From a phage, in sequence record S81550.1: a stretch of 860 bases of DNA; one strand, given 5' to 3'. The notes beneath the pieces are model-generated. The model saw nothing but the letters and a program-made list of their open reading frames with translations. It was not told the DNA's origin and did no database searches. Shown here piece after piece: positions 1 through 860 of this stretch; position 1 is the first letter of the stretch, and every line of letters begins with the position of its first letter. Made by a program: the position numbers and the translations under genes.

Positions 1-5
1 GGGTT

Positions 6-21
6 CCCCCCCGTAGGGGGG
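6..21 (+). promoter_or_regulatory. 5'-terminal stem-loop (C-run/G-run hairpin), presumed replication cis-element
   Basis: Seen directly: CCCCCCC (6-12) and GGGGGG (16-21) are perfectly complementary around a 3-4 nt loop (GUA), giving a very stable GC-only hairpin right after the terminal GGG. By established knowledge, Qbeta and MS2 carry an equivalent 5'-terminal hairpin whose complement forms the 3' end of the minus strand. Confidence 0.65.
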
Positions 22-46
22 TACTCTATGTAGTAGCAACCATTAC

Positions 47-52
47 TGGAGG
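47..52 (+). promoter_or_regulatory. Shine-Dalgarno sequence for the maturation protein gene
   Basis: TGGAGG at 47-52, with a 4-nt spacer (CAAC) before ATG 57-59. The spacing is slightly short but workable. Confidence 0.6.
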
Positions 53-56
53 CAAC

Positions 57-860
57 ATGCCACGTCTACCTAGGGGACTTCGATTCGGAGCGAACATGGA
101 GGTCTTAAATGACTTCCAGGAACTCTGGTATCCAGAGTCCCGCGTCGATTCCGATACGATTTTCCCTTTGTATACCTTCAAAGGTAACATGGGTGGCTCT
201 TTTTTCGACACTTACGGCACAAACAATATTGTCCGTCAGGTTCGAAGGACGCCACACCGTGCTACAGTTCCTATAGCCTCTTCTGGCTTAAGGCCCTGTA
301 CCTCTGTATGGTATGACCCATCCAGCTTGCTTTTCAGGATTCCTGAAATGAGAGCGGTTTGGGACAATGGCATGGGTGATACTGGAGATATTGTCTATAA
401 TGACTTTCTCTTCAATACGCCGGCACCTAAGGAGTTCGATTTCTCTAATTCCTTAGCGCCACGCTACAGTAATGCCTTCTCTGCTTTTAACGCTAAATAT
501 GGCGTTATCATTGGAGAAGGGCGCGAGACACTTAAGTATTTCGCGCTATTACTTCGCAGGCTACATAAAGCAGTCCGTGCCGTTCGGCACGGAGATTTAC
601 GAGGTCTCCGGAGGATCCTTGACTCTTACCATAAGGGTCATTGGAAGCCTGCTACTGCTGGTAATCTCTGGCTCGAATTTCGTTATGGCCTCGTCCCGCT
701 CTTCCATGACATCAAAGATGTCATGAACGACTGGACGCGCATTAACGATAAGATCCAGAAATATCGCCGATTCTCGGTGGGTCATGGTGAGGATTTTAAG
801 CTGTCTATCGACGGCTTATATCCTGGCCTTACTCATTTCCGATTATCTGGTGAGATTACC
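57..860 (+). CDS. A2: Maturation / lysis protein A2 (A-protein) of a Qbeta-like ssRNA phage; N-terminal 268 codons, 3'-truncated by the window edge
   Basis: My own translation from ATG 57 gives 268 sense codons with no stop through 860: MPRLPRGLRFGANMEVLNDFQELWYPESRVDSDTIFPLYTFKGNMGGSFFDTYGTNNIVRQVRRTPHRATVPIASSGLRPCTSVWYDPSSLLFRIPEMRAVWDNGMGDTGDIVYNDFLFNTPAPKEFDFSNSLAPRYSNAFSAFNAKYGVIIGEGRETLKYFALLLRRLHKAVRAVRHGDLRGLRRILDSYHKGHWKPATAGNLWLEFRYGLVPLFHDIKDVMNDWTRINDKIQKYRRFSVGHGEDFKLSIDGLYPGLTHFRLSGEIT. From memory, Qbeta A2 starts MPKLPRGLRFGA...NDFQELW and shares the blocks RQVRRTPHR, VPIASSGLRP, NDFLF, APKEFDFSNSL, AFSAFNAKYG, IGEG, LLLRRL, KPATAGNLWLEFRYGL, FSVGHGED and GEIT in the same order and spacing. 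Qbeta A2 is about 420 aa, so roughly 150 codons would lie beyond the window. Confidence 0.9.
   Translation, partial: MPRLPRGLRFGANMEVLNDFQELWYPESRVDSDTIFPLYTFKGNMGGSFFDTYGTNNIVRQVRRTPHRATVPIASSGLRPCTSVWYDPSSLLFRIPEMRAVWDNGMGDTGDIVYNDFLFNTPAPKEFDFSNSLAPRYSNAFSAFNAKYGVIIGEGRETLKYFALLLRRLHKAVRAVRHGDLRGLRRILDSYHKGHWKPATAGNLWLEFRYGLVPLFHDIKDVMNDWTRINDKIQKYRRFSVGHGEDFKLSIDGLYPGLTHFRLSGEIT

What the first reader, a model, noticed from the sequence alone, without database searches (positions are those of the whole stretch)
57..860. A2 homolog likely carries the single-gene lysis function (MurA inhibition) as well as maturation
In Qbeta, A2 is both the pilus-binding maturation protein and the lysis protein, inhibiting MurA, and the genome has no separate lysis gene. 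This window encodes a clear A2 homolog, so the same dual role is expected. That remains an inference, and it is the more uncertain because parts of the protein are diverged.
Basis: inference. Interest (0 to 1): 0.45.

Follow-up and report, generated by a model that had tools for sequence, protein, structure and literature searches.

The report
Phage M11 maturation/lysis gene A2
The window is the already sequenced and annotated 5' end of RNA coliphage M11, encoding the first 268 residues of its A2 maturation protein; that A2 also lyses the host by blocking MurA is the textbook expectation, but it appears untested for M11.

Summary
Window 57-860 is an open frame of 268 codons behind a GGAGG ribosome-binding site. 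The whole window is 100% identical to nt 1-860 of Enterobacteria phage M11 (AF052431), where the frame is the 421-aa "A-protein". GenBank already annotates it as "involved in particle maturation and bacterial lysis".

The protein is 67% identical to Qbeta A2, hits Pfam Phage_mat-A at E=4e-118, and a model of it superposes on the Qbeta A2 crystal structure (TM 0.81). M11 has the same four genes as Qbeta, and I found no credible separate lysis gene.

It is still unproven. None of the papers I could search mentions M11 together with MurA. The divergence from Qbeta also falls where it matters:
- Qbeta residues 30-120, which make most MurA contacts, are only 53% identical.
- Residues 26-60 are only 29% identical.
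- Residues 26-60 are tightly constrained in Qbeta-type isolates (3 nonsynonymous : 20 synonymous changes) but not between M11 and MX1 (9:8).

Verdict: a known gene in a known phage, with a homology-based function call. The open question is modest: is the MurA interface conserved outside the Qbeta lineage proper? Low interest.

The parts
1..56 (+). 5' untranslated leader of the phage M11 genomic RNA. It starts at the physical 5' end (GGG...) and includes the 5'-terminal C-run/G-run hairpin at about nt 5-22.
   Evidence: 100% match to AF052431 nt 1-56. The terminal hairpin is predicted in M11 and recovered in the consensus fold of 11 Qubevirus 5' ends.
48..52 (+). Shine-Dalgarno sequence GGAGG, 4 nt upstream of the A2 start codon.
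   Evidence: Read directly from the sequence. GAG at 49-51 is invariant in the alignment of 11 genomes.
57..860 (+). A2 (A-protein, maturation protein) CDS, codons 1-268 of 421. It continues to nt 1322 in the full genome.
   Evidence: An AF2 model of the full protein matches Qbeta A2 5MNT at TM 0.81, although model confidence is low (pLDDT 62.9).
57..599 (+). Codons 1-181, the counterpart of Qbeta A2 residues 1-180, which is the shortest N-terminal fragment reported to be lytic in Qbeta.
   Evidence: Fragment definition from Cui 2017 as quoted in PMC12856241. Correspondence from the alignment. This segment is 63% identical to Qbeta.
144..419 (+). Codons 30-121, the counterpart of Qbeta residues 30-120, the beta-region segment reported to make most MurA contacts.
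   Evidence: for the definition. Identity is 53% to Qbeta and 22% to SP. Among Qubevirus lineages this segment is 16-53% identical, apart from closely related pairs (53-65%), versus mostly 46-72% for residues 121-420.
132..236 (+). Codons 26-60, the most diverged segment of the protein.
   Evidence: 29% identity and 42% BLOSUM-positive against Qbeta. Nonsynonymous:synonymous changes are 3:20 in Qbeta-type isolates, 9:8 in M11/MX1 and 36:12 in group IV. The variable hot spot within the M11-like clade lies at residues 29-36.
120..140 (+). Conserved RNA hairpin GAA-CUCUGG-UAU-CCAGAG-UCC inside A2 codons 22-28.
   Evidence: The five loop-proximal pairs are invariant in 11 genomes of groups III and IV, including synonymous positions. 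The outer pairs show compensatory changes.
472..726 (+). +1-frame ORF of 84 aa with a hydrophobic stretch. It was considered as an embedded lysis-gene candidate and judged not to be a gene.
   Evidence: No Shine-Dalgarno upstream. Identity between M11 and MX1 is 72% in this frame against 93% in the A2 frame. The ORF is truncated in MX1, no open +1 stretch of at least 50 codons survives there in FrSangria, and SP and NL95 have no comparable open stretch (group IV FI does: A2 codons 128-228). The hydrophobic part is the +1 reading of the invariant A2 motif ATAGNLWLEFRYGL. No Pfam hit.

Best explanation
The window is the 5' end of the genomic plus-strand RNA of F-specific coliphage M11 (Qubevirus, genogroup III). 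It holds a structured 56-nt leader, a GGAGG ribosome-binding site and the first 268 of 421 codons of A2. Shown: A2 is the single-copy maturation protein of the Phage_mat-A family with the Qbeta A2 fold. Inferred: it binds the genomic RNA and the F-pilus. Also inferred: as in Qbeta, free and virion-bound A2 binds the UDP-GlcNAc-liganded closed form of E. coli MurA through its exposed N-terminal beta-region. That would stop peptidoglycan precursor synthesis, so growing cells would lyse at the septum, and A2 would be the phage's only lysis effector. The window contains the whole counterpart of the Qbeta minimal lytic fragment (residues 1-180) and of the MurA-contact segment (residues 30-120).
For: Identity with M11 and its annotation 'involved in particle maturation and bacterial lysis'. 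67% identity to Qbeta A2 and E=1.9e-194 to the A2 chain of the A2-MurA complex entry 5VM7. PF03863. Fold match to 5MNT at TM 0.81. The same four-gene genome as Qbeta, with no annotated lysis gene. No conserved, SD-preceded small membrane ORF in M11/MX1. The N-terminal ~100-140 residues are shared only within Qubevirus: 79 of 80 other leviviral Mat loci align only from residue 102 or later. Within the M11-like clade residues 37-120 are well conserved, so the region is under purifying selection (M11-MX1 dN/dS 0.14-0.27). M11-type strains are recovered as infectious F-RNA phages from wastewater. The literature states MurA binding by the maturation protein as a Qubevirus genus trait.
Against: No experiment on M11 A2 was found. 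The MurA-contact segment is the least conserved part: 53% identity over residues 30-120 and 29% over 26-60. Residues 26-60 are almost frozen in nine Qbeta-type isolates (3 nonsynonymous: 20 synonymous) but change freely between M11 and MX1 (9:8; Fisher p=0.013, uncorrected for the 9 regions tested) and in group IV (36:12). That pattern would fit a constraint peculiar to the Qbeta lineage. With the nearest outgroup (P0003), 8 of 9 assignable changes in residues 26-60 fall on the Qbeta branch, but more distant outgroups do not reproduce this. Antillon et al. suggest that high A2-MurA affinity may be a recent acquisition of 'modern' Qbeta. In Qbeta a single MurA substitution abolishes lysis, so the interface is sensitive.
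Confidence: 0.7

Rival explanations
1. M11 A2 is still the lysis effector, but its beta-region surface is remodelled. It would then bind MurA in a different mode or with different affinity than Qbeta A2, or inhibit another step of cell-wall precursor supply.
For: 29% identity over residues 26-60 and 53% over 30-120. Clade-specific constraint on residues 26-60. A variable hot spot at residues 29-36 in the M11-like clade, where Qbeta-type isolates are invariant. The whole genus varies strongly in this segment, mostly 16-53% identity, yet no lineage examined has an extra gene. Convergence of unrelated lysis proteins on a few targets is documented.
Against: The host, and therefore MurA, is the same E. 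coli protein for all these phages. The beta-hairpin core at residues 61-87 is 85% identical, and G43, N56, T65-P66, T70-P72, G77, R79-P80, T82, V84, Y86, P88 and G105 are invariant across 14 A2 proteins. I could not obtain the exact contact residues, so the diverged positions may not be the contacting ones.
Confidence: 0.17
2. Lysis by M11 is carried out by a separate small protein embedded in another frame, and A2 is only the maturation protein. Candidates are the +1 ORFs at genome nt 472-726 or 1024-1245.
For: Embedded, out-of-frame, TMD-bearing lysis genes are the rule in other ssRNA phages. M11 and MX1 share two +1-frame ORFs with hydrophobic stretches inside the A2 gene. A frameshift-derived alternative lysis peptide has been described for Qbeta.
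Against: ORF 472-726 has no SD and is 72% identical between M11 and MX1, against 93% in the A2 frame. It is truncated in MX1, has no open stretch of at least 50 codons in FrSangria, and has no counterpart in SP or NL95. Its start codons are not conserved between clades, and its hydrophobic segment is the +1 reading of the invariant A2 motif. ORF 1024-1245 starts at TTG with no SD. M11 lacks the GAGGUUG frameshift site of Qbeta. Neither short ORF tested (window 109-273 and 472-723) has a Pfam hit.
Confidence: 0.06
3. M11 A2 has low MurA affinity, and the phage lyses poorly or is released in a chronic, leaky way, as described for the original isolate that gave rise to Qbeta.
For: Remark by Antillon et al. 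on the original isolate Q and on later gain of affinity. Weaker constraint on residues 26-60 outside the Qbeta-type clade.
Against: M11 is a classical isolate that is propagated and typed as a plaque-forming F-RNA phage (my own knowledge), and M11-type strains are recovered after culture enrichment. The N-terminal region is still under purifying selection within the clade.
Confidence: 0.05

Closest known systems
Enterobacteria phage M11 A-protein (GenBank AAC06249.1, record AF052431; UniProt O64302)
   Same: Identical. The window is nt 1-860 of that record, and the ORF is codons 1-268 of that protein.
   Different: Nothing. The record's note 'involved in ... bacterial lysis' is itself an annotation by analogy with Qbeta, not an experiment that I could trace.
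Phage MX1 A-protein (AAC14698.1; also RefSeq NC_001890)
   Same: Nearest relative: 91% protein identity, 87% nucleotide identity over the window, and the same gene layout.
   Different: The differences are concentrated in residues 26-60 (74% identity). The MX1 record mentions only maturation.
Qbeta A2, the maturation protein and MurA-inhibiting single-gene lysis protein (PDB 5MNT, 5VLZ, 5VM7)
   Same: Orthologue with 67% identity, the same length apart from one residue, the same fold, the same genome position and the same four-gene genome.
   Different: The beta-region segment that contacts MurA in Qbeta is 53% identical, and residues 26-60 only 29%. Selective constraint on that segment differs between the two clades. 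Lysis and MurA binding have been shown only for Qbeta.
Group IV Qubevirus A-proteins (SP, NL95, FI)
   Same: Same family and genome layout. NL95 and FI are annotated for maturation and lysis.
   Different: 42-46% identity to M11, an insertion of about 20-30 residues after residue 192, and only 22% identity over residues 30-120.
MS2-type maturation protein (PDB 5TC1, 6NM5), with lysis by the separate L protein
   Same: Shares the C-terminal two thirds of the Mat fold; the sequence match runs from M11 residue ~143 onward.
   Different: No detectable similarity to M11 residues 1-140. MS2-type phages encode a dedicated membrane lysis protein and have no read-through A1.

Membership tests
Phage_mat-A (PF03863) leviviral maturation proteins | Significant match to the family profile | tested here: met
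   E=3.7e-118, 395.6 bits against a cut-off of 25, residues 32-268.
Phage_mat-A (PF03863) leviviral maturation proteins | Mat fold: a beta-region plus an alpha-helical region | tested here: met
   The AF2 model gives Foldseek top hits to 5MNT chains at TM 0.79-0.81 and E about 1e-49. Model confidence is low (pLDDT 62.9).
Phage_mat-A (PF03863) leviviral maturation proteins | First gene of the genome, directly after the 5' leader | tested here: met
   The CDS starts at nt 57 of a genome that begins GGG....
Qubevirus (former Allolevivirus) A2-type maturation proteins | Genus-specific N-terminal ~100-140 residues | tested here: met
   Full-length alignment only with Qubevirus proteins. MS2-type and metagenomic Mat proteins align only from residue 102 or later.
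Qubevirus (former Allolevivirus) A2-type maturation proteins | Genome with a coat read-through protein A1 and no dedicated lysis gene | tested here: met
   M11 annotation lists A-protein, coat, A1 and replicase only. The ORF scan found no supported extra gene.
MurA-inhibiting single-gene lysis proteins ('protein antibiotic', Qbeta A2 type) | Expression of the protein alone lyses E. coli | not testable with these tools
   Needs an induction experiment. No report for M11 was found.
MurA-inhibiting single-gene lysis proteins ('protein antibiotic', Qbeta A2 type) | Direct binding and inhibition of MurA in its closed, UDP-GlcNAc-bound state | not testable with these tools
Only single-chain modelling was possible.
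MurA-inhibiting single-gene lysis proteins ('protein antibiotic', Qbeta A2 type) | Lysis blocked by the murA(rat) L138Q allele or by excess MurA | not testable with these tools
   This is a genetic test. The single-substitution sensitivity is known for Qbeta only.
MurA-inhibiting single-gene lysis proteins ('protein antibiotic', Qbeta A2 type) | Conservation of the MurA-contact segment (Qbeta residues 30-120) | tested here: inconclusive
   53% identity and 63% positives overall: 85% in residues 61-87 but 29% in 26-60 and 48% in 88-120. The exact contact residues could not be retrieved because the primary papers are not held.
MurA-inhibiting single-gene lysis proteins ('protein antibiotic', Qbeta A2 type) | Presence of the counterpart of the minimal lytic fragment (Qbeta residues 1-180) | tested here: met
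   M11 residues 1-181 align colinearly with one single-residue gap at 63% identity, and lie entirely within the window.

The most novel reading that the evidence does not exclude
The MurA-binding surface defined in Qbeta may be a lineage-specific adaptation rather than a genus-wide trait. M11/MX1 A2, and still more the group IV proteins, would then engage MurA through a substantially different set of contacts, bind it much more weakly, or act on another target. In that case 'A2 = MurA inhibitor' could not be transferred by homology within Qubevirus.
Probability: 0.17. Interest if true: 0.55.

Novelty: already known. Interest (0 to 1): 0.15.

Why it matters
As it stands the finding matters little. 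It re-identifies a gene deposited and annotated in 1998 and repeats the standard extrapolation from Qbeta. The useful residue is a sharper question. The segment of A2 that contacts MurA in Qbeta is the fastest-evolving part of the protein across the genus, and it appears tightly constrained only in the Qbeta-type clade. Testing M11 or MX1 A2, and a group IV A2, against MurA would show how much sequence change a moonlighting protein-antibiotic interface tolerates. It would also show whether MurA inhibition is ancestral to Qubevirus or was refined recently.

Tried and rejected
1. Exact A2-MurA contact residues. The primary papers (Cui 2017, Reed 2012, the JBC review) are not held, and a search for L138Q found nothing. 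I had to use the coarse 'residues 30-120' and '1-180' as quoted in PMC12856241.

2. Structural modelling. Only a single-chain AF2 model was possible, from an 8-sequence alignment. Its confidence is low (pLDDT 62.9) and it says nothing about the interface.

3. Embedded lysis-gene candidates. The +1 ORFs at 472-726 and 1024-1245, and the Nishihara frameshift ORF, were examined and rejected.

4. Rfam scan of the window at E<=1 gave no match.

5. More M11-like genomes for a better selection test. The metagenome scan returned only a Qbeta-like and a group IV-like contig. IMG/VR gave one Qbeta-like contig plus distant leviviruses. The M11-like JGI proteins were therefore available only as protein sequences.

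6. Relative-rate test. The result with the P0003 outgroup (8 changes on the Qbeta branch against 1 on the M11 branch in residues 26-60) was not reproduced with more distant outgroups, so I treat it as weak.

7. The por mutations of Qbeta (L28P, D52N, E125G, recalled from memory). The wild-type residues fit the Qbeta sequence. They are reported to act by raising A2 synthesis, not affinity, so I did not use them as interface markers.

Full report
WHAT IS THERE. The window begins GGG..., has GGAGG at 48-52 and ATG at 57-59, and stays open in that frame for 268 codons to its last base. The ORF list omits this frame only because it runs off the end. A blastn search of the phage collection gives a 100% match over all 860 bases to nt 1-860 of AF052431.1, Enterobacteria phage M11. 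The next best match, at 87%, is phage MX1 (AF059242 = NC_001890). Qbeta-type isolates match at about 73%, and only from nt ~390 onward. In the M11 record the CDS runs 57-1322 and encodes the 421-aa "A-protein", annotated [quoted passage not shown]. It is followed by coat, the read-through protein A1 and the replicase, and nothing else. The finding therefore concerns a known, annotated gene of a classical genogroup III F-specific RNA coliphage.

HOMOLOGY TO A2.
- The full M11 protein is 67% identical (79% positives) to Qbeta A2, with one single-residue gap.
- It matches the A2 chains of PDB 5VLZ/5VM7/7LHD and 5MNT at E about 1e-194.
- The window part hits Pfam Phage_mat-A at E=3.7e-118.
- An AF2 model from an 8-sequence alignment is of low confidence (pLDDT 62.9), yet its best structural matches are the 5MNT chains at TM 0.79-0.81.
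- MS2-type and metagenomic maturation proteins align only from about residue 102-150 onward. The N-terminal ~100-140 residues are therefore, at the sequence level, a Qubevirus-specific module.
- A search of 5.8 billion proteins found only eight 90% clusters related to the window ORF, all of them Qubevirus-like.

WHAT THE LITERATURE ALLOWS. For Qbeta, A2 alone causes lysis and does so by binding MurA. MurA contacts lie mostly in the beta-region at residues 30-120, and residues 1-180 are the shortest lytic fragment (Cui 2017, as quoted in PMC12856241). A2 binds the closed, UDP-GlcNAc-bound MurA. Reviews and a 2026 paper state maturation-protein lysis or MurA binding as a trait of Allolevivirus/Qubevirus as a whole. 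I found no searchable paper that mentions M11 together with MurA or reports a lysis test of M11, MX1 or group IV A2. Antillon et al. remark that the original isolate behind Qbeta behaved like a chronic phage, and that modern Qbeta likely arose by mutations that increased A2 affinity for MurA. A single MurA substitution abolishes Qbeta lysis.

WHERE M11 DIFFERS. I aligned 14 Qubevirus A2 proteins. Identity of M11 to Qbeta by segment (Qbeta numbering) is shown below.

| Residues | Identity to Qbeta |
|---|---|
| 1-25 | 80% |
| 26-60 | 29% |
| 61-87 | 85% |
| 88-120 | 48% |
| 121-180 | 73% |
| 181-267 | 67% |
| 268-420 | 73% |
| 30-120 (MurA-contact segment) | 53% |

This holds genus-wide: among eight lineages, residues 30-120 are mostly 16-53% identical (up to 65% between close relatives), against mostly 46-72% for residues 121-420.

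Selection analysis adds a twist. Minimal nonsynonymous:synonymous change counts for residues 26-60 are 3:20 among nine geographically diverse Qbeta-type isolates, 9:8 between M11 and MX1, and 36:12 in group IV. Fisher's test for Qbeta-type against M11/MX1 gives p=0.013, uncorrected for the nine regions tested. Pairwise dN/dS for this segment is 0-0.08 in Qbeta-type pairs, 0.27 in M11-MX1 and 0.43-0.73 in group IV.

Metagenomic M11-like proteins show that variation within that clade clusters at residues 29-36, while residues 37-120 are otherwise conserved. The stretch at 29-36 (FIESSDTH in Qbeta) is invariant in Qbeta-type isolates. With the nearest outgroup (P0003 lineage), 8 of 9 assignable changes in residues 26-60 fall on the Qbeta branch, but more distant outgroups do not confirm this. 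These results are suggestive, not decisive. They fit the idea that part of the Qbeta interface is lineage-specific. They fit equally well with differences in pilus binding, which maps to the same exposed region.

IS THERE ANOTHER LYSIS GENE? Two +1-frame ORFs inside A2 carry hydrophobic stretches and are shared with MX1: 472-726 (within the window) and 1024-1245.
- ORF 472-726 has no Shine-Dalgarno sequence.
- It is 72% identical between M11 and MX1 in its own frame, against 93% in the A2 frame.
- It is truncated in MX1, no open +1 stretch of at least 50 codons survives there in FrSangria, and SP and NL95 have no comparable open stretch.
- It uses different start codons in the Qbeta clade.
- Its hydrophobic core is the +1 reading of the invariant A2 motif ATAGNLWLEFRYGL.
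- ORF 1024-1245 starts at TTG with no Shine-Dalgarno sequence upstream.

The GAGGUUG site of the frameshift-derived alternative lysis peptide described for Qbeta is present in Qbeta but absent from M11. A divergent Qubevirus-like contig (L015) also has only mat, coat, read-through and replicase genes. No separate lysis gene is supported.

SURROUNDINGS. The 56-nt leader carries the 5'-terminal hairpin. A hairpin at 120-140 inside the coding region is conserved across groups III and IV, including synonymous positions, and its outer pairs show compensatory changes. Rfam has no matching family.

VERDICT. The tools available here could not test it, and the MurA-contact segment is the least conserved part of the protein. 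The finding is already known at the level of gene, phage and annotation, so interest is low. The open point is whether the Qbeta-type MurA interface is conserved in M11/MX1 and group IV phages. The experiments listed under next steps would settle that directly.

Noticed in passing
window 120-140: Hairpin GAA-CUCUGG-UAU-CCAGAG-UCC inside A2 codons 22-28. The five loop-proximal base pairs are invariant in 11 genomes of genogroups III and IV, including synonymous codon positions, and the outer pairs show compensatory changes. This points to an RNA-level function, but I did not establish which.
   Followed up: partly
window 132-236 (A2 codons 26-60): Selective constraint differs by clade. Nonsynonymous:synonymous changes are 3:20 in nine Qbeta-type isolates, 9:8 in M11/MX1 and 36:12 in group IV. 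In the M11-like clade the variable sites cluster at residues 29-36, a stretch that is invariant in Qbeta-type isolates.
   Followed up: partly
window 472-726: A +1-frame ORF of 84 aa with a TMD-like stretch, shared in truncated form with MX1 and open from a different start in most Qbeta-type genomes. I judged it a passenger of the conserved A2 motif rather than a gene.
   Followed up: yes
window 417-599 (A2 codons 121-180): Lowest synonymous divergence of the gene in both clades: dS 0.21-0.25 against a gene mean of 0.33-0.46. This suggests an RNA-structure or other overlapping constraint.
   Followed up: no
L001 2401-2604 and L002 2381: Qbeta carries the GAGGUUG site of the reported frameshift-derived alternative lysis peptide at the start of the replicase gene. 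M11 lacks that site, although the corresponding +1 frame is open for 67 codons from a GTG.
   Followed up: partly
P0003 cluster (L016, L017); P0004/P0008 (L015): Uncharacterised Qubevirus-like lineages in Logan/ENA assemblies. One is 58% identical to the M11 window ORF, with nine full-length variants; another is 44-46% identical. L015 has the mat, coat, read-through and replicase layout.
   Followed up: partly
L001 about nt 1308-1310 (outside the window): The GenBank M11 record has an ambiguous base that gives X at A2 residue 418. The UniRef/nr protein P0001 reads R there.
   Followed up: no
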